From a virus (taxonomy: Duplodnaviria > Heunggongvirae > Uroviricota > Caudoviricetes), in the IMG/VR virus record IMGVR_UViG_3300029085_000054: a DNA stretch of 26,759 nt; one strand, written 5' to 3'. Position numbers and translations under genes: made by a program. Shown here in pieces: positions 1 to 7,934 of the stretch; positions within the stretch are counted from its first letter, which is position 1; every line of letters starts with the position of its first letter. A model generated the notes under the pieces. That model ran no database searches and was not told the origin of the DNA. It saw only the letters and a list, made by a program, of their open reading frames with translations.

Positions 1-1803
1 CACGGCCACAACCGGCCAGCTAATCGCCCCGATGGCGGTCATAACAGCACTGCCAACCGTCGTGAAGATTGCCCCCATTGCGCCTGCTGCCGCGATGATG
101 GCATTGATGCCGGTGATAACCGGCCAGGCTACGAGGCCAATGGCACCGATGACACCAATCAGTGCCAGTGCACCACCGACAATGATGCCGATGGTTGACG
201 CCAGTGATTTGTTTTTCTGGATCCAGCCGTCGAGTTTTAACACATACTTTGTGGCCGTCTGCGTGAGATTACGCAGTGCGCCTTCCTGCTGGTCAAACAG
301 GTCAGTGCCAACAGCCTGATACGCTGACTGAAACGATTTAAAGTCGCCGCCGAGGTTATCCTGCATAACCTTAACCAGTTCTTCTGTTTTACCGTCAGAT
401 TCTTTAATCAACCTGGTCAGATTATCCAGCTTGCCGCTGGCTGCTGCTGTCATTAATACACTTGCTGATGAGCTGGCCTCTTCGCCGAATATTGTTTTCA
501 TGTATTCAGCGCGCTGCCCTGTTCCTAGTTTATTTTTTTCAAAACTCCGCTGAATTTCTTTCAGAATTGAAAAGACAGGTCGCGTATTACCTTTGCTGTC
601 AGTTGTCTTTACGCCAAGCTCTTTAATAGCGTCATATGCTTTCCCGGTTGGTGCCTGCAAACGACTCAGTACTGCTCGACTTCCTGTGCCAGCCATAGAC
701 CCACTGATATTTGCATCATGTAATGCACCTAACATTGCTGCTGTTTCTTCCAGGCTGACACCTGCATCTTTTGCCACTGGCCCGACATAGGTAAGTGAAT
801 CACTTAGTCCCTCGAATGTGGCTTGCGATTTATTCATCGTCATTGAAATAACATCAGCAATATGGGAAGCCTTATCATCAGCAAGCCCGAATGCCGATTT
901 TGTCCCAATAAGTAAAGTGGCGTTTTCCTCCATCGTTTTCTTGTTTGCCAGTGACATATTCAAAATGGCCGGTGTTTGTGCCAAGATGCCATTTTTATCC
1001 GCTCCTGATTTAGCCACGATGATTTGAGCTGCTGCTGCATCATCCGCCGAGGCGGCTGTGTTGTCGCCGAGCTGGCGCGCCTGTTTGCGTAGCGCGGCCA
1101 TTTCGGCGGAATCTTTTGCCACTCCGAGCACAGCCTGTAATTCTGAGTTTTTCTGCGCAAACTCATAACCGGGCATCAGCAACTTAACTCCGGCCATCGT
1201 TCCCGCCGCCGCAATCCCCACACCGGCAGCGCCCACTGAGGCCATATTTCCGGCCAGTTCCTTTCCGGCCTGATAACGCTGTTTTACTGCGTTAAGTTTT
1301 GCCTGTTGTGCACTGACACGCGCCAGCGCATCACGCTGCCGGTTAAGCTGTGCGGTGGTTTCACTGATACGGTTTTTCAGCCCCTGCTCATCATGTGCAA
1401 GATTGCGGGTATTAATTCCCACAGAGGCCAGTTCCCGCTGCTGGCGTTTAACGGAATCCGTCAGGCGGTTATATTTCGCCTGTAAGTCCTCCGCCGCACG
1501 CTTTGCGGATTCCAGCACTTTCGCCTGAGCACGGGTCGGACGTTCGGTGTTTTTAAACTGTGTGGCAAGGGCTTCGGCTTCCTGCCGTGCCTTTTCAAGT
1601 GCATGACCAGTCACGGCAAGCTGTGCACTGGTCTTGCGGAATCCCTCAATACGGGATGCGTGACCGTTCAGCTCGCGCAGTGATTTTTGTGTTTCCCGGA
1701 TATCCCCCGACAGCGACTTACTCGCTGTACGGATGGATTTAAACGGGCGGGATGCCTGGTCAACAGCCCTGAGCAATACCTGTAATTTTACATTGTTACT
1801 CAT
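1..1803 (-). CDS. T: Tail tape measure protein gpT, partial (C-terminal part lies beyond the window start)
   Basis: ATG at 1803..1801; translation begins MSNNVKLQVLLRAVDQASRPF. No complete minus-strand ORF is listed across 1..1800 and all plus-strand ORFs there are short, consistent with one long minus-strand frame running off the edge. Position after E/E' matches P2. Confidence 0.85.
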   Translation of the reverse strand, partial: MSNNVKLQVLLRAVDQASRPFKSIRTASKSLSGDIRETQKSLRELNGHASRIEGFRKTSAQLAVTGHALEKARQEAEALATQFKNTERPTRAQAKVLESAKRAAEDLQAKYNRLTDSVKRQQRELASVGINTRNLAHDEQGLKNRISETTAQLNRQRDALARVSAQQAKLNAVKQRYQAGKELAGNMASVGAAGVGIAAAGTMAGVKLLMPGYEFAQKNSELQAVLGVAKDSAEMAALRKQARQLGDNTAASADDAAAAQIIVAKSGADKNGILAQTPAILNMSLANKKTMEENATLLIGTKSAFGLADDKASHIADVISMTMNKSQATFEGLSDSLTYVGPVAKDAGVSLEETAAMLGALHDANISGSMAGTGSRAVLSRLQAPTGKAYDAIKELGVKTTDSKGNTRPVFSILKEIQRSFEKNKLGTGQRAEYMKTIFGEEASSSASVLMTAAASGKLDNLTRLIKESDGKTEELVKVMQDNLGGDFKSFQSAYQAVGTDLFDQQEGALRNLTQTATKYVLKLDGWIQKNKSLASTIGIIVGGALALIGVIGAIGLVAWPVITGINAIIAAAGAMGAIFTTVGSAVMTAIGAISWPVVAV

Positions 1804-2223
1804 TCGTGTTTCCGCTTCGCCGGAGCGCCTTTTCGCGCCATGTGATGAGTTCGGTCAGGCTCATGGGATACAGTTCTGATGGCGGCCAGTGAAATATCAC
1901 TGCCACATCCGCCATCAGGTCATCGACCGACAGACTTTTCGGGAACGTCACTGCACCGAGTTCGGCGACAAAAAACCGACCACCTTACCGGCCAGCGCCA
2001 CAAGGTCAGGCAGTTCCAGCGCGGCGACCTCCTGCTCGGTCAGCATCGGTGCCGTCATGCGCGGCAGCACCTTAATCAGTGCATCGACTTCGGAGTTCGC
2101 GACCGCAGCCAGACTGACACCGCGCAGCGTCCCGGCATTGGGTTTCATCAGCGTGACCTGTTCGATGACCTGCTCACCACGTTTGACCGGATTGTCCAGG
2201 GTAATCACATTTTCTTTGTTCAT
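1796..2223 (-). CDS. E': gpE+E' frameshift fusion product (142 aa by manual translation; -1 shift at T6G)
   Basis: Manual translation: 0-frame codons GGT TTT TTG at 1977..1969; after a -1 slip the frame reads VAELGAVTFPKSLSVDDLMADVAVIFHWPPSELYPMSLTELITWREKALRRSGNTNE and stops at TAA 1798..1796. Total 85+57 = 142 aa, the length I recall for P2 E+E'. The 3' end overlaps the T start. Confidence 0.8.
1948..2223 (-). CDS. E: Tail assembly chaperone gpE (91 aa)
   Basis: ORF track 91 aa; length and position between FII and T match P2 E; ends GFLSPNSVQ with the slippery T6G near its 3' end. Confidence 0.9.
   Translation of the reverse strand: MNKENVITLDNPVKRGEQVIEQVTLMKPNAGTLRGVSLAAVANSEVDALIKVLPRMTAPMLTEQEVAALELPDLVALAGKVVGFLSPNSVQ
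1969..1975 (-). other. Programmed -1 ribosomal frameshift slippery heptamer TTTTTTG (E to E')
   Basis: Minus-strand T6 run 1975..1970 followed by G at 1969, in X_XXY_YYZ register relative to the E frame. Confidence 0.8.
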
Positions 2224-2264
2224 GGTTTTCTCACTTCTGAATCAGGGTTAACCGGTCAGCCAGG

Positions 2265-2305
2265 NNNNNNNNNNNNNNNNNNNNNNNNNNNNNNNNNNNN
2301 NNNNN
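2265..2305. other. Assembly gap (41 N)
   Basis: Run of n characters in the sequence. Confidence 1.
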
Positions 2306-2306
2306 C

Positions 2307-2795
2307 CAGCCGGTCGACGCCGTTCACCTTCTCAATCATGTTGATGGTGTCGATTTCGACCAGCTCCTTACCGTCCATCGTCAGCCGGAAATAAGTGCAG
2401 ACCACGGAGATTTTCGACTCGGTGTCTTCTCCCTGTTTACCCTCGCCGGTGTCGATTTCTTTCTGACGGCCACGCATGACCACTTCGACGGCCACCGTTT
2501 CGCCGGTATCGTCGCGCTGGTAAGAGCCAGCAAAACGAATCGGTACGGCATCCACACCGGTTGCGGCGTAAAGCTCCCAGATAACCGAATCCGGGAAGCC
2601 CCCGAGCGACCACTCCATTGACAGCGCATCGTCATCAAGGCCGAGGTCTACCGGTGCGCTGCCGTTCATCCCCGCACCGCGATAGTTTTCGAGCTTACGG
2701 GTCAGTTTTGGCAGCGTGACGGACTTTGCAACGCCCTGATAGCTGTAGCCGTTCAGAAAGACGTTCATTAACTTGAGTTTGCGCGGCATTGCCAT
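2307..2795 (-). CDS. FII: Tail tube protein gpFII; 3' end unresolved (last ~9 codons and stop fall inside the N gap)
   Basis: 163 resolved codons from ATG at 2795 (MAMPRKLKLMNVFLNGYSYQG ... KVNGVDRL) and then Ns. P2 FII is 172 aa as I recall, so the true stop should lie in the gap; the stop at 2256 in the ORF track is an artefact of reading through N. Confidence 0.85.
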
Positions 2796-2807
2796 CGGTC
2801 AGGCTCC

Positions 2808-3998
2808 TTAATTGCTGTTAACCGAGGTAACCAGACTTGCCAGGTATCTGGAAGTAATACGCTGGCGCAGGGTCAGGTTTTCGAGAGGAGGCACCGGGGT
2901 ATAGTCGTAGTCGATATACAGTTTTCCGGCCTTGAGGGTTTCCGCATCATTGGCTTCTTCACTGAACCAGCATGTGCCATCCACGATATAACCGTTGTTT
3001 TTCAGTTCGCGGAATTTGGCATTAATGCCATCAATGATGTCACGAATCAGCGTTGCGGTAATTGGCTTATCAATAGCCCACATGTGCGCCTCGGCCATCG
3101 TGTCGGCCAGTACCTGCGCGGTGCGGGTGTAGCTTTCAAAGAGGAACAGCGGGTCATCAGAGCAGGTACGGTTACCCCAGAAGCGGAAGCCGTCGCGGCG
3201 AATCAGCGTAGTGATGCCTGACTCGTTAAGCAGGTCAGCATCAGTGCCGGGCTTCTGCAAATCCCAGAATACAGAGGCGCTGATGCCGGTAACACCATTT
3301 ACCCCGACATTGGACAGCGTTTTATGCCAGCCCTGCTCCTGGTCGATTTTGGCACGCAGCCCCAGCGCACGGGCGGTGGCATACGCGGTGGCGGTGGTAC
3401 TGGTGACCGTATCCCATGCGAGGAAATCCGGCCAGATGACCATCAGCTCACGCTGGCTGAAATTCTGACGGTAGGCTTTTGCCTCGGAAATGGTTTTACA
3501 GCCCCATGCGCTAATATACCCGAATGCATTCAGTTCCTGGCATACCGATGCCAGTGCGACGGCAACCTCTTTGGTGTCCAGTCCCGGTACGCCGAGAATG
3601 CGTGGTTTAACGCCGGTAACCGACTCAGCCCCCATCAGGGCTTTCAGTCCGGTGTACTGACCGTTTTCGTCGGTGGTGCCGATGATATTGGAAACGGTCT
3701 GCGCGAGTTTCGTTTCTTCGTCTTCGCCGGTGCCGTCTTCCACGCGCACGACAACGGTGACCGGTTTTGACTGGTCAGCGATGGCCTGCAACGATGCCGC
3801 CAGCGTGCCTTTTTTACCGGCCTTTGCAATTGCACTCTGCACATTGGTAATCAGTACAGGTTTATTGAGGGGAAAGGTTTCCGCATCCGCATCGCTGGCC
3901 GTGCAGACCATGCCGACAATGGCAGTGGATACGGTGGAAATGACGCGGGTGCCGTCGTTAATCTCCAGCACCTGCACGCCGTGATGATAGTCACTCAT
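2808..3998 (-). CDS. FI: Contractile tail sheath protein gpFI (396 aa)
   Basis: ORF track 396 aa; sheath-like sequence; position upstream of FII; same length as P2 FI as I recall. Confidence 0.92.
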   Translation of the reverse strand: MSDYHHGVQVLEINDGTRVISTVSTAIVGMVCTASDADAETFPLNKPVLITNVQSAIAKAGKKGTLAASLQAIADQSKPVTVVVRVEDGTGEDEETKLAQTVSNIIGTTDENGQYTGLKALMGAESVTGVKPRILGVPGLDTKEVAVALASVCQELNAFGYISAWGCKTISEAKAYRQNFSQRELMVIWPDFLAWDTVTSTTATAYATARALGLRAKIDQEQGWHKTLSNVGVNGVTGISASVFWDLQKPGTDADLLNESGITTLIRRDGFRFWGNRTCSDDPLFLFESYTRTAQVLADTMAEAHMWAIDKPITATLIRDIIDGINAKFRELKNNGYIVDGTCWFSEEANDAETLKAGKLYIDYDYTPVPPLENLTLRQRITSRYLASLVTSVNSN

Positions 3999-4091
3999 CC
4001 GTTTAACTCCGTGGTTAATGGGTGCAACTATTTTCTGTTGTGCAGAGCATGAGGCGCTATTTGACCTAGCTGGTCAGTGGATGAAACAACA

Positions 4092-4121
4092 GATAAAGAA
4101 AAGACGGGCAATCAGCCCGCC
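4092..4121 (-). terminator. Rho-independent terminator after G (end of the V-to-G operon)
   Basis: Minus strand reads GGCGGGC-TGATT-GCCCGTC followed by TTTTCTTTAT, a few nt after the G stop codon. Confidence 0.6.
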
Positions 4122-4126
4122 TGTGT

Positions 4127-4654
4127 TTATTGCGGTATTTCCGGCCATTCGGGATTTGCAGGATCCACACGACTGACCAGAACGCTGTAGCGTTCCCATG
4201 CTTCCAGTCGACTGCGCTCCTCATCTGTTGCCATATTCAGCCTGACAGCGCGCTCCAGTGGCTGAATAACGCTTTCCGCTTCGGAAAGTAACGCGGCCTT
4301 TTGTGATTCTGCCTGTTGTTGCTGTTCGTCTGCCGTATAAATCCGCTTAATCACGGCACCATCCTTAAACATCCATTTACCTGAGTCATCAGCACGTCGG
4401 TTGGCGGTAATATCAGGAACCTCGACAACGCTAAAACCTTCAGGGTTGAGCGTTGAAGCATCTCTGGTGATGCCGACAATTATATTATTCTCGTCGTAAA
4501 CAATCTTTATCGTGTCTTCCTGAAAATTACTTACTTCCTCATACCAGTTTTTTCCCTCTTCGGACCATAACCAGATAACATCAAAATTTTTTGTCAGTTG
4601 ATATTGGGCAACAGTTTTTGGATTACCCGCAGTAATATTTTTTAAATGCTGCAT
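4127..4654 (-). CDS. G: Tail fibre assembly protein gpG (175 aa)
   Basis: ORF track 175 aa directly downstream of the tail fibre gene; same length as P2 G as I recall. Confidence 0.85.
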
Positions 4655-4657
4655 AAA

Positions 4658-7393
4658 TTACACCTGTGCGACGTTATACCATGTGCCATTGATGTATTTT
4701 TGTATTGGTCTGAATACTGCGGGGTCATCACCATCGACTTCACCGACAATACCAAGCCCGGTAATTACGTGCCCTGCTTTCTCATACATCACCCCTTTCT
4801 GCATGGTCTGGACAACACGTGTGCCAAGTCTGACATCTCTCACATAGCGGGAATCAAAGTTACCGTAATCCGAGGGATTAACACGCCCCGTAATATTTAT
4901 GGTTTTATTACTTTGAACGCTTCCGGAGACAAAGCGCATAACATGGACGCTATTAGCATAAACATCCAGATTACCATCACCATTTTGTTTAAAGCCCGTG
5001 TCATTATCACCCAAAACAATCGAATTACCGCCAAGAGCACTGGATGTTCCTATACCCAGAGCACCATTCAATTGACCACCAGATAACGGCAGTGCACCGA
5101 CATCTCCCGCTGTAGGTTTTCGCGTTGTGGTATAAAACTCAGACCAGTCAGCCTCGAATCCGTAACCGTCACGAGCAGAACGATAAAAAATACCACCGTT
5201 CTTATAATTAACGCGAAACTGGGCGGCGGGACAACTTCCTTCACCGATATTAAAATGAAGAATTAACGTTGATGCCCCACCAATAGTTGCGTTATAGGCT
5301 CCGCTACTCCAGTTCCATCCAACGGCTTTATCATTCGCAACAGTGTCTCCTGTTTTTCCTGAAGCAAATGCACCAATATTTTTCGGCGTCAGGTTAATAT
5401 CTGATGTTCCATCAAACGAAACGTTATTAATTTTACGGGCTGTTTTCAGCTTTGTTGCTGTCGCCGCATTGCCGGACAGTTCACCAGAAAGGCCAGCACT
5501 GAATGTCTGTTTCGCGCCCCATGTCTGGGCTTCGTCAATGATTGGTACTCGTCTTGTTGTGATCGTGCGGCTTCCCGGATTTCCTGAAATGCGCACCATA
5601 AAAAAGCGGTAGTTGGCTTTACTTACAGTGCTGCGCCATACATGCATTGAGCGCCCCGTACCGGAATCATCACTCGGACCAACTGCGATGTTTATCAGGT
5701 TGCCATCAATGACGCCCCAGTCCATACCGTCGGGAATATTGGTCATATTATCCAGCCGAACGGTTATCAGACTGCCCGGCACAAAATCGTAGGTCTGCCA
5801 GTCCAGACTGGATAGTTTTGCCACTGCGCCACCGATGCCCAGATTCAGGGGAAGTGAATAAGATGTGTAAACTTCCCGCCATTCGCTCCATGAACTGCCG
5901 GTAAAAACGCGCTCAAACGTGCGACCTTTAAGGGTTGTACCTGTTCCGGCAGTTGTATAACGCTGCCATACGTTAACACCATCAAAGCGCCTCAACACTT
6001 CCAGAATACCGAGGACTGTCACGCCGTTTCCATCCAGTATTGGACCGTTGCTCGCTTTACCTGTAACGCTGTAAATACCTGGTGAAGTCACATCATTCAA
6101 ATCCCCGTCGTAATAACGACTCTCTGACTGATGACCGACTCTTAACCACGGTTCCCACTGCGGATTTGATGCATCCCAGCTTGCCGCAAGGCAGCGGACG
6201 TACATATTTCCACGGCGAGTGGTATAACGTTGCGTTCTTCCATAATTCCCGCCTTCGAGGATCTCAAGCGTCCCCTGAGCAAAGCCGCCTTCCTCTGGAT
6301 AATTGCGTTCATATGAAGCTATAGCCGAGCTACTGTTACGCCATAAACCAAGATGCTCAGCGGCTCCAAGCGTATTCAGGTCTATAGTCGTACTCAAAGG
6401 GCGGGTAGCTGATTGAGTGTGACGCCATACGCCCCACGGACCATCAGTGCCATTCCACTTATTGGCGAGTTTACGCATGTATACATTGCCGTCTCTCGTG
6501 ATAAAACGTTGCGTGCCTGCAAAATTGCCAGCTGCAAAAACCTCAAGCACACCGACAGCATTATCTTCCGGGAAATTTTTCTCCAGTGTTGCGTTGGTGG
6601 ATGTTGCTTTAGACCAGATGCCAAGATAAGCCTTCACGGGACCAAATGTATTCAGGTCGGCATCAAGCGGCATTTCGCCATTGTTTTTCATAAACGTCAG
6701 GCTGGTAACGCCAACATTGTCCAGAAAAGCGCCCTTATCTGGAATATCGCCACCGTTCTGGTCTTTCTGCAGACGTTTCTCAGCATTGTCATAGGCTGCT
6801 TTTACTGCCTTTGGCGTTGCCGCCAGCTTTTCACTGGTGCTGTTTGTTGCACTGCTTAACTGGGTAAAACCTTTTTCTGTCAGCGTGGCGTCAGGATGGC
6901 GGCGGGACTGCTCATGCTCTGCGATTTTGTCATCGACGTAATCCTGCGTCGCCATCACTGTGCTGGCATCAATACTCAGCTCAACGGACGCCACGTTGCT
7001 GACAATAATAACCATGCGGCAGGTCTGCGCGCGCCCGGAGCCTTCAGCCAGTTCTGGCTTATAGCTTTCTGCCATGTTAGCGACCGCAATCAGTGTTCCG
7101 GCATCGTCATACAGACCAAGTTCACGCATCCAGAAGCCGCCCACTTCTGGCGGTACAACCAGTTCAGCCACGATATAGTTTTTATTCTTATTATCCACGC
7201 TGACTTTATTCAGAGCGTGACGCCAGACCTCATGCACCAGTTTCGTCTGACCGGCATCCGGCACCGGCAATTTGCCATTACCGTCACCCACGGCCATTGC
7301 AGACAGGTTTACTTTTTTCCCGCCGGGGACAGTGGCGGCTGCCAGCTTTGCGGCTCCGGCAGTAGTGATAACGGTTTTAAATTTCGTGCTCAT
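4658..7393 (-). CDS. H: Tail fibre protein gpH (911 aa): P2-like N-terminus, three tandem ~55-aa repeats, divergent C-terminal part
   Basis: N-terminus MSTKFKTVITTAGAAKLAAATVPGG is P2 H-like. Internal repeats at roughly aa 273-330, 363-417 and 455-510 share G.LE.L..GN....TQR..TR.GN.Y.R.....W..W. Considerably longer than P2 H (669 aa as I recall). Confidence 0.88.
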   Translation of the reverse strand: MSTKFKTVITTAGAAKLAAATVPGGKKVNLSAMAVGDGNGKLPVPDAGQTKLVHEVWRHALNKVSVDNKNKNYIVAELVVPPEVGGFWMRELGLYDDAGTLIAVANMAESYKPELAEGSGRAQTCRMVIIVSNVASVELSIDASTVMATQDYVDDKIAEHEQSRRHPDATLTEKGFTQLSSATNSTSEKLAATPKAVKAAYDNAEKRLQKDQNGGDIPDKGAFLDNVGVTSLTFMKNNGEMPLDADLNTFGPVKAYLGIWSKATSTNATLEKNFPEDNAVGVLEVFAAGNFAGTQRFITRDGNVYMRKLANKWNGTDGPWGVWRHTQSATRPLSTTIDLNTLGAAEHLGLWRNSSSAIASYERNYPEEGGFAQGTLEILEGGNYGRTQRYTTRRGNMYVRCLAASWDASNPQWEPWLRVGHQSESRYYDGDLNDVTSPGIYSVTGKASNGPILDGNGVTVLGILEVLRRFDGVNVWQRYTTAGTGTTLKGRTFERVFTGSSWSEWREVYTSYSLPLNLGIGGAVAKLSSLDWQTYDFVPGSLITVRLDNMTNIPDGMDWGVIDGNLINIAVGPSDDSGTGRSMHVWRSTVSKANYRFFMVRISGNPGSRTITTRRVPIIDEAQTWGAKQTFSAGLSGELSGNAATATKLKTARKINNVSFDGTSDINLTPKNIGAFASGKTGDTVANDKAVGWNWSSGAYNATIGGASTLILHFNIGEGSCPAAQFRVNYKNGGIFYRSARDGYGFEADWSEFYTTTRKPTAGDVGALPLSGGQLNGALGIGTSSALGGNSIVLGDNDTGFKQNGDGNLDVYANSVHVMRFVSGSVQSNKTINITGRVNPSDYGNFDSRYVRDVRLGTRVVQTMQKGVMYEKAGHVITGLGIVGEVDGDDPAVFRPIQKYINGTWYNVAQV

Positions 7394-7403
7394 TGTTTCT
7401 CAC

Positions 7404-7934
7404 TTATCCGGGATAAACAGTAATAACATCACCATCACAGACCACACCGCCTGTATACAGATAGCCGGGAATGTCCTGGATAATGTTCAGGCCGATAAGG
7501 TGTCGACTTGCGGGTTTGGCATCGGCAATCAGCCGTTCCATTTCCAGATACATCTCTTCCGTGATACCGCTTTCCAGTACGCCGATATCAAGGCGAAAGG
7601 TTCCGGCCGGGTCGTTTGTCTCCCACCATTCCTTTACGTTAATGAGATAGCCGAGCGGCTCCACCACACGCCGGATTGCACCGATAGTGCCTTTATGGCA
7701 GTGAATGAAATACGCATCGCGGATAACGGCGCGTTTTGTTGCTTCCGGCCACTTTTCATCCCAGCGGTCAACCGAAAACGCCCACGCCAGCCACGGCAGC
7801 AGATTTGCCGGGCAGGTGTCCGGGTTCCACAGCTCACGAATACTGACCGGCGTTTTTTCAATTTCCGCACAGGCTTTTGCGGCGGCAACTTCAAGCGGTG
7901 ATGAGCCGGTCGGCAGCAGTCGCGAATCACTCAT
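7404..7934 (-). CDS. I: Baseplate assembly protein gpI (176 aa)
   Basis: ORF track 176 aa; position between J and H; length matches P2 I. Confidence 0.88.
   Translation of the reverse strand: MSDSRLLPTGSSPLEVAAAKACAEIEKTPVSIRELWNPDTCPANLLPWLAWAFSVDRWDEKWPEATKRAVIRDAYFIHCHKGTIGAIRRVVEPLGYLINVKEWWETNDPAGTFRLDIGVLESGITEEMYLEMERLIADAKPASRHLIGLNIIQDIPGYLYTGGVVCDGDVITVYPG

What the first reader, a model, noticed from the sequence alone, without database searches (positions are those of the whole stretch)
4127..7393. Tail fibre module is mosaic: P2-like N-terminus, triplicated internal repeat, foreign distal part and chaperone
H is 911 aa versus 669 aa recalled for P2. After a P2-like N-terminus it carries three tandem ~55-aa repeats (about aa 273-330, 363-417, 455-510; nt roughly 5864..6577) sharing G.LE.L..GN....TQR..TR.GN.Y.R.....W..W. 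The distal H region and G appear more AT-rich by eye than the baseplate genes. This suggests a horizontally exchanged receptor-binding module, and therefore a different host range from P2.
Basis: partly seen in the sequence, partly recalled or inferred. Interest (0 to 1): 0.5.

Follow-up and report, generated by a model that had tools for sequence, protein, structure and literature searches.

The report
L-413C-type P2 tail fibre with knobs
This is an intact tail-fibre gene and chaperone of a P2-like E. coli prophage, of the long, already described L-413C type: the middle of the fibre (three bead-like "knob" domains shared with T-even phages), not its tip or chaperone, differs from phage P2. 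It is an ordinary, common variant.

Summary
The sequence facts mostly hold. H (4658-7393, minus strand) is 911 aa against 669 aa in P2. Its first 204 aa are 86% identical to P2 H. It carries three tandem repeats, and distal H plus G are AT-rich.

Three points need correction.
- The repeat unit is about 92 aa, a knob domain, not 55 aa. Copies 1 and 2 are 43% identical. Copy 3 is recognisable only by profile and predicted structure.
- The triplication is old. The same three knobs plus a fourth domain occur at 55-60% identity in T6/T2-type gp37.
- The tip and chaperone are not foreign. G is 92% identical to P2 G, the last 72 aa of H are 82% identical to P2 H, and P2 shows the same GC drop. What differs from P2 is the central cassette, about aa 205-785.

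H is collinear with gpH of Yersinia phage L-413C (80%) and of vB_YpM_22 (96%). The hybrid nature of L-413C gpH was published in 2008. The knob module is present in 334 of 5426 complete E. coli genomes.

A host range different from P2 is plausible but not shown, because L-413C and P2 vir1 need the same LPS-core residue on Y. pestis. This is already known and of low interest.

The parts
4658..7393 (-). Gene H, tail fibre protein, 911 aa, intact ORF.
   Evidence: ORF list and translation. Pfam Phage_tail_fib E 5e-58 and Phage_fiber_2 E 8e-21. 96% identical to gpH of the plaque-forming Yersinia phage vB_YpM_22 and 80% to L-413C gpH.
6782..7393 (-). H aa 1-204: P2-like N-terminal baseplate-attachment (tail-collar) part.
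   Evidence: 86% aa identity to P2 H 1-204. 83% nt identity, continuous with gene I. 98-100% conserved among nine Peduovirus H proteins.
6677..6781 (-). H aa 205-239: linker after the P2 homology ends. Similar to the constant part of Mu S.
   Evidence: H aa 167-233 align to Mu S 110-176 (5yvq, 8ju3). There is no P2 match beyond aa 204.
6404..6676 (-). Knob domain 1 (aa 240-330).
   Evidence: 43% identical to knob 2, E 2e-23. 66% identical to the first knob of a T-even gp37. AF2 model with pLDDT about 85 and a five-strand unit.
6128..6403 (-). Knob domain 2 (aa 331-422).
   Evidence: 71% identical to the second knob of a T-even gp37. AF2 five-strand unit.
5846..6127 (-). Knob domain 3 (aa 423-516), a diverged copy.
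   Evidence: hhalign against knobs 1 and 2: probability 90-92%, E about 1e-6. Same five-strand pattern in the AF2 model. Most variable block between the window and vB_YpM_22, 74% aa against 95-100% in the other modules.
5507..5845 (-). Domain D4 (aa 517-629). Fold unassigned. Travels with the knobs in T-even gp37.
   Evidence: 55% identical to a T-even gp37 (P0049) over aa 399-512 of that protein, and inside the T6 gp37 alignment. Unrelated to the knobs. No solved relative found by profile search.
5375..5506 (-). Linker motif (aa 630-673), SGNAATATKLKTARKINNVSFDGTSDINLTP.
   Evidence: 66% identical to T6 gp37 aa 63-106, where it lies before the knobs instead of after D4. Identical (100%) in the eight L-413C-type relatives, 73% in P24A7b.
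5087..5374 (-). Mu S'-like domain (aa 674-769). Weak Pfam gp37_C match.
   Evidence: 79 of 98 residues (81%) identical to Mu S' 320-417, PDB 8ju3. Pfam PF12604 E 8e-5.
4661..5086 (-). Distal tip (aa 770-911), P2 H / Mu S-like. Presumed chaperone-dependent receptor-binding end.
   Evidence: Aligns to P2 H 472-669 with a 56-aa gap. First 55 aa are 69% identical and last 72 aa 82% identical. Aa 835-910 align to Mu S 425-503 (5yvq), and aa 785-857 to the chain named 'Long tail fiber distal subunit' in 6f45.
4127..4654 (-). Gene G, tail fibre assembly chaperone, 175 aa.
   Evidence: 92% identical to P2 G. Pfam Caudo_TAP E 3e-36. Co-varies with H aa 835-911 among relatives.
4102..4122 (-). Terminator-like hairpin followed by a T run, immediately after G. 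Probable end of the V-W-J-I-H-G operon.
   Evidence: Consensus scan and sequence. P2 annotates a terminator for the V operon after G.

Best explanation
The region encodes the tail fibre (H) and its assembly chaperone (G) of a P2-like (Peduovirus) prophage of E. coli. H is of the long L-413C type.

H is a chain of modules:
- aa 1-204: a P2-type N-terminal part that attaches the fibre to the baseplate.
- aa 205-239: a short Mu S-like linker.
- aa 240-516: three tandem knob domains of about 92 aa each.
- aa 517-629: a fourth domain (D4) of unknown fold.
- aa 630-673: a conserved GNAATATKL...FDG linker.
- aa 674-769: a Mu S'-like domain.
- aa 770-911: a P2 H / Mu S-type tip.

Relative to P2, only the central cassette (about aa 205-785) is different. 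It is 242 aa longer than the P2 equivalent. The tip and G are ordinary P2-family sequence.

Inferred mechanism, by homology and not shown here: three H chains form a fibre. G helps the C-terminal tip to fold. The tip binds the LPS core. The knobs form the beaded shaft and may add side-on contacts with surface sugars that tune which strains are infected.

Among close relatives, two cassettes are exchanged by recombination independently of each other. One is the knobs, down to single knobs. The other is the last roughly 75 aa of H together with G.
For: **Gene order and intact ORFs.** The order is I, H, G, terminator, FI.

**Module boundaries against P2.**

**Close relatives.**
- H is collinear with L-413C gpH, 913 aa, 80% identity. 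Identity is about 99% outside aa 205-640.
- H is 96% identical to vB_YpM_22 gpH.
- L-413C gpH was already described as a four-part hybrid. The N-terminal 207 aa and the C-terminal 137 aa are P2-like, and the middle is itself a mosaic (Garcia et al. 2008, as summarised in PMC7460101).

**Origin of the middle.** The block around H aa 235-635 matches T-even gp37: 58-61% identity by tblastn with aa 235-634, and 55% over the BLASTP alignment of H 226-688 with T6 gp37 105-562.

**Knob identity.**
- A profile of the repeat units hits the R1 and R2 pyocin fibres on Knob2, and Pa193 gp47, with E 5e-5 to 4e-3.
- NCBI names close homologues 'pyocin knob domain-containing protein'.
- The AF2 model of aa 235-520 has pLDDT 81 and three equivalent five-strand units.
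- Foldseek's top hit is the R1 pyocin fibre 6cl5, E 6e-7.

**Independent cassettes.** The module identity table and the 90-nt sliding identity show them.

**Receptor inference.** L-413C gpH binds Y. pestis cells (PMC7460101). L-413C and P2 vir1 both need the LPS outer-core GlcNAc (PMC3182234).
Against: - No experiment has been done on this particular protein.
- The trimeric state, the role of G and LPS binding are inferred from homologues.
- The structure model is a monomer of one segment only.
- The D4 fold is unassigned.
- Whether the knobs bind anything is unknown. PMC6116203 only argues it for R-type pyocins from sequence diversity and bound ethylene glycol.
- The direction of exchange cannot be decided: either the P2 type or the L-413C type could be ancestral. 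Both middle types are about equally common in E. coli, 356 and 334 of 5426 genomes.
Confidence: 0.85

Rival explanations
1. The distal receptor-binding part of H and the chaperone G were imported together from an unrelated phage. This prophage therefore has a host range different from P2.
For: - Distal H and G are AT-rich.
- The tip and chaperone do move as a unit in some relatives. In phages 10W, P22H1 and NC_070906, aa 835-911 are 56% and G about 75% identical to the window.
- P24A7b has a completely different distal end with a 192-aa TfaP/TfaQ-type chaperone.
Against: - In this window G is 92% identical to P2 G.
- H aa 844-911 plus G are one continuous 86% nt match to P2. That is the same divergence as gene I and the H N-terminus, 83%.
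- P2 has the same GC drop.
- L-413C, which has this tip, and P2 vir1 need the same LPS residue.
Confidence: 0.07
2. The three repeats are a recent internal repeat expansion (triplication) in this prophage lineage, which lengthened a P2-type fibre.
For: - H is 242 aa longer than P2 H.
- Repeats 1 and 2 are clearly paralogous.
Against: - There is no DNA-level repeat.
- Paralogous copies are only 24-43% identical.
- T-even gp37 carries the same three knobs in the same order. Counterpart identities are 66%, 71% and 47%, higher than between copies within H.
- P2 H has no knob at all, so nothing in it could have been expanded.
Confidence: 0.02
3. The knob domains, rather than the tip, are the main determinant of strain specificity in this fibre type. 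They would bind surface polysaccharide side-on, and swapping single knobs would retarget the phage.
For: - Among H proteins whose other modules are 95-100% identical to the window, differences are concentrated in single knobs. vB_YpM_22 differs mainly in knob 3 (74%). Phage 569R9 differs in knobs 1 and 2 (77-82%) while knob 3 is 99%.
- In R-type pyocins, Knob2 is the most diverse region and is argued to weigh more than the C-terminal lectin domain in setting the killing spectrum (PMC6116203).
- A knob-like prism in the K1F endosialidase binds sialic acid (same paper).
Against: - No binding data exist for these knobs.
- Block-wise variation could be neutral recombination among shaft modules.
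- In another P2-like phage, P88, host range was changed by residues 716-746 near the distal end of its fibre (PMC5285337).
- L-413C and P2 share a receptor although only L-413C has knobs.
Confidence: 0.25
4. The module is a decaying remnant in a defective prophage and no longer makes a working fibre.
For: None specific. Prophage tail-fibre genes are often degraded. Many database homologues are partial, but they are labelled as contig-end fragments.
Against: - H and G are full-length and uninterrupted.
- H is the same length as gpH of the isolated phage vB_YpM_22, is 96% identical to it, and aligns without gaps.
- The neighbouring genes I and FI are intact.
Confidence: 0.04

Closest known systems
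gpH / gpG of Yersinia phage L-413C (NC_004745) and of Peduoviruses vB_YpM_22, vB_YpM_50, P24C9, P24B2 and 569R9
   Same: - Same length class, 909-919 aa.
- Same module order, with full-length collinear alignment (80% to L-413C, 96% to vB_YpM_22).
- Same 175-aa G chaperone (96-98% identical).
- Same position between I and FI.
   Different: - The knob and D4 blocks differ. Against L-413C the identities are 44%, 71%, 44% and 73%. Against vB_YpM_22 mainly knob 3 differs (74%).
- The window has no cargo gene between G and FI, whereas these phages carry one or two.
Phage P2 gpH (669 aa) and gpG
   Same: - N-terminal 204 aa are 86% identical.
- The last 72 aa are 82% identical.
- G is 92% identical.
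- Same operon position and the same GC drop over distal H and G.
   Different: - P2 H aa 205-471 are replaced by an unrelated cassette of about 565 aa (three knobs, D4, linker, Mu S'-like domain).
- P2 has an extra 56 aa inside the tip region.
Distal long-tail-fibre subunit gp37 of T6/T2-type T-even phages
   Same: The block of three knobs plus D4 matches T-even gp37 at 58-61% by tblastn. The T6 gp37 BLASTP alignment (H 226-688, T6 105-562) is 55% identical. The GNAATATKL...FDG linker motif is also shared.
   Different: - The N-terminus (gp36 joint) and C-terminus (gp38 adhesin end) differ.
- The linker motif lies before the knobs in gp37 and after D4 in H.
- H is a baseplate-attached single-piece fibre.
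Knob domains of the R1 and R2 pyocin fibres (PDB 6CL5, 6CL6, 6CU2; Buth et al. 2018, PMC6116203)
   Same: - Tandem units of about 85-90 aa, each a five- or six-stranded antiparallel sheet.
- Profile hits on Knob2 with E 6e-4 to 4e-3.
- The knob is the most variable part of the fibre in both.
   Different: - Three knobs rather than two.
- Only about 21% sequence identity.
- Followed by D4 and a Mu/P2-type tip instead of the iron-binding shaft and lectin-like C-terminal domain of the pyocin fibre.
Phage Mu tail fibres S (G+; PDB 5YVQ) and S' (G-; PDB 8JU3)
   Same: - H aa 167-233 resemble the constant part of S.
- H aa 671-768 are 81% identical to S' 320-417.
- H aa 835-910 align to the S tip, 425-503.
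   Different: - There is no invertible segment.
- There is no second fibre and chaperone pair. A terminator and then FI follow G directly.
- In H the S'-type and S-type pieces sit in one polypeptide.

Membership tests
P2-family (Peduovirus) tail fibre gpH | N-terminal tail-collar fibre domain (Pfam PF12571) followed by the Phage_fiber_2 repeat. | tested here: met
   PF12571 E 5.4e-58 over aa 1-151. PF03406 E 7.6e-21 over aa 170-210. 86% identity to P2 H 1-204.
P2-family (Peduovirus) tail fibre gpH | Position in the V-W-J-I-H-G operon, followed by a Caudo_TAP-family chaperone. | tested here: met
   Tail_P2_I gene lies upstream at 7404-7934. Caudo_TAP gene G lies downstream at 4127-4654. The sheath gene FI lies beyond. 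The order is the same as in NC_001895.
P2-family (Peduovirus) tail fibre gpH | Full-length collinearity with P2 gpH itself. | tested here: not met
   Only aa 1-204 and 770-911 align. About 565 aa in between have no P2 counterpart. It is therefore a P2-family fibre but not the P2 type.
L-413C-type gpH | Four-part hybrid of about 910 aa: P2-like N-terminus of about 207 aa, P2-like C-terminus of about 137 aa, and a non-P2 mosaic middle. | tested here: met
   A single gapless-in-effect alignment over 911 of 913 aa, 80% identity. The published description is quoted in PMC7460101.
Knob domain (pyocin knob, cd19958-type; Buth et al. 2018) | Sequence-profile similarity to the knobs of the R1 and R2 pyocin fibres. 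| tested here: met
   The unit profile A1 gives 6ct8/6cu2 E 6e-4, 6cl6 E 9e-4, 6cl5 E 4e-3 and 9b45 gp47 E 5e-5. These are the top four hits and cover positions 7-88 of 93. The scores are modest. NCBI naming of close homologues agrees. No Pfam model matched.
Knob domain (pyocin knob, cd19958-type; Buth et al. 2018) | Fold: an antiparallel sheet of five or six strands in a unit of about 85-90 aa, in tandem. | tested here: met
Knob domain (pyocin knob, cd19958-type; Buth et al. 2018) | Trimeric assembly with the sheets buried at the three-fold axis. | not testable with these tools
   Only a monomer could be predicted.
T-even gp37 distal half-fibre | gp36-joining N-terminus and a gp38- or gp57-dependent C-terminal end. 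| tested here: not met
   Only the internal block (T6 gp37 aa 63-562) is shared. Both ends differ. It shares a module but is not a member.
Mu/P1-type invertible tail-fibre system | Two alternative fibre C-termini and chaperones on an invertible segment with a Gin/Cin recombinase. | tested here: not met
   G is followed at once by a terminator-like hairpin (4102-4122) and 128 nt later by FI. The antisense ORFs inside H have no family match.

The most novel reading that the evidence does not exclude
Single knob domains in L-413C-type fibres may be independently exchangeable specificity cassettes. They would make side-on contacts with LPS or O-antigen sugars. E. coli and Yersinia P2-like phages would then retarget by swapping one knob while keeping a constant tip and chaperone. 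The block-wise variation seen here (knob 3 alone in vB_YpM_22; knobs 1 and 2 alone in 569R9) fits this reading but equally fits neutral shaft recombination.
Probability: 0.2. Interest if true: 0.4.

Novelty: already known. Interest (0 to 1): 0.12.

Why it matters
It matters little as a discovery.
- The hybrid nature of this fibre type was published for L-413C in 2008.
- The knob domain was defined structurally in 2018.
- The module is present in about 6% of complete E. coli genomes.

The practical value is a corrected map of this fibre. The tip and chaperone are P2-equivalent. The central shaft is a T-even-like module of three knobs. Among relatives, two cassettes recombine independently: the knobs, and the tip end together with G. 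That map is useful to anyone engineering P2 or R-pyocin fibre chimeras, or predicting host range from prophage sequence. In particular, it warns against inferring a host-range change from the AT-rich distal region, which P2 shares.

Tried and rejected
- **DNA-level repeat searches** (TRF, and seed-and-extend direct repeats) found nothing corresponding to the protein repeats.
- **A first AlphaFold run** on aa 235-634 without an alignment failed, pLDDT 32, and was discarded. The run with a 26-sequence alignment on aa 235-520 succeeded.
- **Pfam** has no model that matches the knob units. **NCBIfam** has none for H.
- **Domain D4:** a profile search against solved structures gave only chance-level hits, best E 0.07 to an RNA-binding protein. 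Its fold stays unassigned.
- **Antisense ORFs inside H** (4646-5086, 5343-5612, 6413-6859, 6896-7423, plus strand) have no family match and are taken as chance ORFs.
- **Papers not held.** Garcia et al. 2008 (PubMed 18045639), Haggard-Ljungquist et al. 1992 (PMC206541) and Christie and Calendar 2016 (PMC4836473) were not available. They are cited only through papers that quote them.
- **Considered and rejected:** recent repeat expansion, an invertible Mu-like fibre system, and a decayed pseudogene (see rivals and membership tests).
Full report
**1. What is at the coordinates**

The finding covers two adjacent minus-strand ORFs: 4658-7393 (911 aa) and 4127-4654 (175 aa).
- The first carries Phage_tail_fib (aa 1-151, E 5e-58) and Phage_fiber_2 (aa 170-210, E 8e-21), plus weak gp37_C and gp37_trimer matches in its distal third.
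- The second is a Caudo_TAP tail-fibre assembly protein (E 3e-36).
- Upstream lies a Tail_P2_I gene and downstream the sheath gene FI.

This is the I-H-G ... FI arrangement of phage P2. The window is 100% identical to a stretch of the chromosome of E. coli NZ_OZ038535.1, so it is a P2-like prophage.

**2. Check of the observation**

*Length.* P2 H is 669 aa (NC_001895, 12734-14743), so the size difference is real.

*N-terminus.* BLASTP of H against P2 H gives 86% identity over aa 1-204.

*Repeats.*
The units are aa 240-330, 331-422 and 423-516.
- Units 1 and 2 are 43% identical over 80 aa (E 2e-23).
- Unit 3 is only marginal by BLAST (24%, E 0.06).
- I built small families for each unit from database homologues and compared them profile against profile. 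Unit 3 joins units 1 and 2 with 90-92% probability (E 6e-7 to 2e-6). The neighbouring domain D4, used as a control, scores 0.1%.
- Nothing is repeated at DNA level.

*Composition.*
- GC falls to 0.40-0.46 over 4350-5400, against 0.55-0.60 in the baseplate genes.
- Third-position GC drops from 0.56-0.64 (I, J, FI, H N-terminus) to 0.33-0.42 (linker 2, the Mu S'-like domain, the tip and G).

**3.

- G is 92% identical to P2 G.
- The C-terminal part of H realigns with P2 H: aa 770-911 against P2 472-669, with a 56-aa gap. The last 72 aa are 82% identical.
- At DNA level, window 4127-4864 (H aa 844 to the end, plus all of G) is one continuous 86% match to P2. That is no more diverged than gene I plus the H N-terminus, at 83%.
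- P2 shows the same GC drop over its own distal H and G, 0.37-0.46.

The AT-rich tip and chaperone are therefore a shared P2-family feature. [quoted passage not shown] They are not something that sets this prophage apart from P2. What differs from P2 is the central cassette, about aa 205-785 (window about 5040-6787).

**4. What the central cassette is**

*T-even block.*
- A tblastn search with aa 235-634 finds this block at 58-61% identity over its full length in the distal long-tail-fibre subunit gp37 of many T-even phages, including T6, RB32, RB3 and PST.
- The BLASTP alignment of H 226-688 with T6 gp37 105-562 is 55% identical. It covers all three repeat units and D4, in the same order.
- Each unit is closer to its counterpart in a gp37 (66%, 71% and 47% for units 1, 2 and 3) than to its neighbours within H (43%, 24%). 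The triplication therefore predates the split between these fibre families and is not an expansion in this lineage.

*Linker motif.* The motif GNAATATKLKTARKIN..FDG..DI.LTP lies before the knobs in T6 gp37 (aa 63-106) and after D4 in H (aa 630-673).

*Mu-like pieces.*
- H aa 671-768 are 81% identical to residues 320-417 of the Mu G(-) fibre S' (PDB 8ju3).
- The tip, aa 835-910, aligns to the Mu G(+) fibre S (5yvq).

**5. The repeats are knob domains**

- A profile of 22 repeat units searched against PDB sequences gives four top hits, all tail fibres. They are Pa193 gp47 (E 5e-5) and the R2 and R1 pyocin fibres (E 6e-4 to 4e-3), aligned on pyocin Knob2 over almost the whole unit.
- NCBI names proteins whose matching region is 84-99% identical to this block 'pyocin knob domain-containing protein'.
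- An AlphaFold model of aa 235-520 with a 26-sequence alignment has mean pLDDT 81. It shows five strands at equivalent positions in each of three units.
- Foldseek's best PDB hit is the R1 pyocin fibre 6cl5 (E 6e-7). It is followed by the receptor-binding proteins of phi812, NF5, Phi11, 80alpha and Pa193.
- This is largely the set that Buth et al. (PMC6116203) list as knob-like. They define the knob as a five- or six-stranded antiparallel sheet occurring in tandem. They note that Knob2 is the most diverse part of the pyocin fibre and probably weighs heavily in killing spectrum.
- D4 (aa 517-629) could not be assigned to any solved structure by sequence profile.

**6. It is a known fibre type**

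- H aligns end to end with gpH of the plague-diagnostic phage L-413C (913 aa, 80%). By module, identity to L-413C is 97-100% outside aa 205-629 and 44-74% inside it.
- H also aligns end to end with gpH of vB_YpM_22 (911 aa, 96%).
- According to PMC7460101, Garcia et al. (2008) described L-413C gpH as a hybrid of four regions. The N-terminal 207 aa and the C-terminal 137 aa resemble P2 H. [quoted passage not shown] That is the architecture found here.
- In the phage collection, 28 records hold at least 80% of the region.
- In complete E. coli genomes, the knob plus D4 block is present at 80% coverage or more in 334 of 5426. The P2-type middle is present in 356 of 5426. Both types are common.

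**7. Variation among relatives**

I extracted H and G from nine Peduoviruses and scored identity to the window module by module and in 90-nt steps.
- The N-terminus is 98-100% identical everywhere.
- Aa 631-840 are close to 100% identical in all L-413C-type fibres.
- Two cassettes vary in sharp blocks.
  - The knob and D4 region varies down to single knobs. vB_YpM_22 differs mainly in knob 3 (74%). Phage 569R9 differs in knobs 1 and 2 (77-82%) with knob 3 at 99%. L-413C and P24A7b share a divergent set (44%, 71%, 44%, 72-73%).
  - The last roughly 75 aa of H vary together with G. In 10W, P22H1 and NC_070906 the tip is 56% and G about 75% identical.
- P24A7b combines L-413C-like knobs with a wholly different distal end and a 192-aa TfaP/TfaQ-type chaperone.

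In this window, however, that pair is the P2 version.

**8. How it most likely works**

*Shown here:* the gene order, the intact ORFs, the module map, the predicted knob fold and the recombination blocks.

*Inferred from homologues:*
- H forms a homotrimer anchored to the baseplate by its N-terminal part.
- G assists folding of the C-terminal tip. By my own recollection of the Mu S-U work, it may stay bound there.
- The tip recognises the LPS core.

*Published data that support the receptor inference:*
- Fluorescent L-413C gpH binds Y. pestis cells (PMC7460101).
- L-413C and P2 vir1 both lose plating on waaL, waaF and hldE mutants, with the terminal outer-core GlcNAc as the critical residue (PMC3182234).

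A shared receptor fits the shared tip. The two phages still differ in plating behaviour on Y. pestis (titres of 5e11 and 2e7 PFU/ml; stocks grown at 28 C and 37 C). The longer knob-bearing shaft may therefore modulate host range, as proposed for pyocin Knob2. This is not demonstrated.

**9. Verdict**

The interpretation needs to be turned around: the middle, not the distal end and chaperone, is what differs from P2. The repeats are an old three-knob module shared with T-even gp37. The whole architecture is that of the published L-413C-type gpH. It is a valid feature, but ordinary and already known.

Noticed in passing
window 3999-4126 (between G and FI): The gap between G and FI is only 128 nt, a terminator-like hairpin plus the FI upstream region, with no gene. 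Relatives carry variable cargo at this spot: fun(Z) in P2, a Shedu nuclease in several E. coli prophages, a phosphatase annotated beside a hypothetical protein or a NUDIX hydrolase (10W, P24C9), and other hypothetical proteins. This variable cargo locus is empty here.
   Followed up: partly
L006 (phage 10W), L008 (P22H1), L009 (NC_070906): H aa 835-919 and G: In these relatives the last roughly 75 aa of H (56% identical to the window) and G (about 75%) have been replaced together, while the rest of H is 97-100% identical. This is a tip-plus-chaperone cassette.
   Followed up: partly
L011 (Peduovirus P24A7b) 1799-5001: This 874-aa H has the P2-type N-terminus and L-413C-like knobs. Its distal half is unrelated, and it is followed by a 192-aa TfaP/TfaQ-type chaperone. 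It shows that the knob module combines with different tips.
   Followed up: partly
window 5375-5506 (H aa 630-673) and L004 (T6 gp37 aa 63-106): The conserved motif GNAATATKLKTARKIN..FDG..DI.LTP flanks the knob block on opposite sides in H (after D4) and in T6 gp37 (before knob 1). It is a candidate recombination joint between fibre modules.
   Followed up: no
window 5507-5845 (H aa 517-629, domain D4): This domain of about 113 aa always accompanies the three knobs, in Peduovirus H and in T-even gp37. It has no Pfam match and no solved relative by sequence profile, so its fold and role are unknown.
   Followed up: partly
L009 (NC_070906.1) and OU784746.1: Records labelled 'Peduovirus P2' carry a 919-aa L-413C-type H rather than the 669-aa H of the P2 reference. 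The species label does not indicate the fibre type.
   Followed up: no
E. coli NZ_OZ038535.1, outside the window: The source genome holds a second place matching the knob plus D4 block and three places matching the 4000-7500 query. At least one other prophage in the same cell probably carries related fibre modules that could act as recombination partners.
   Followed up: no
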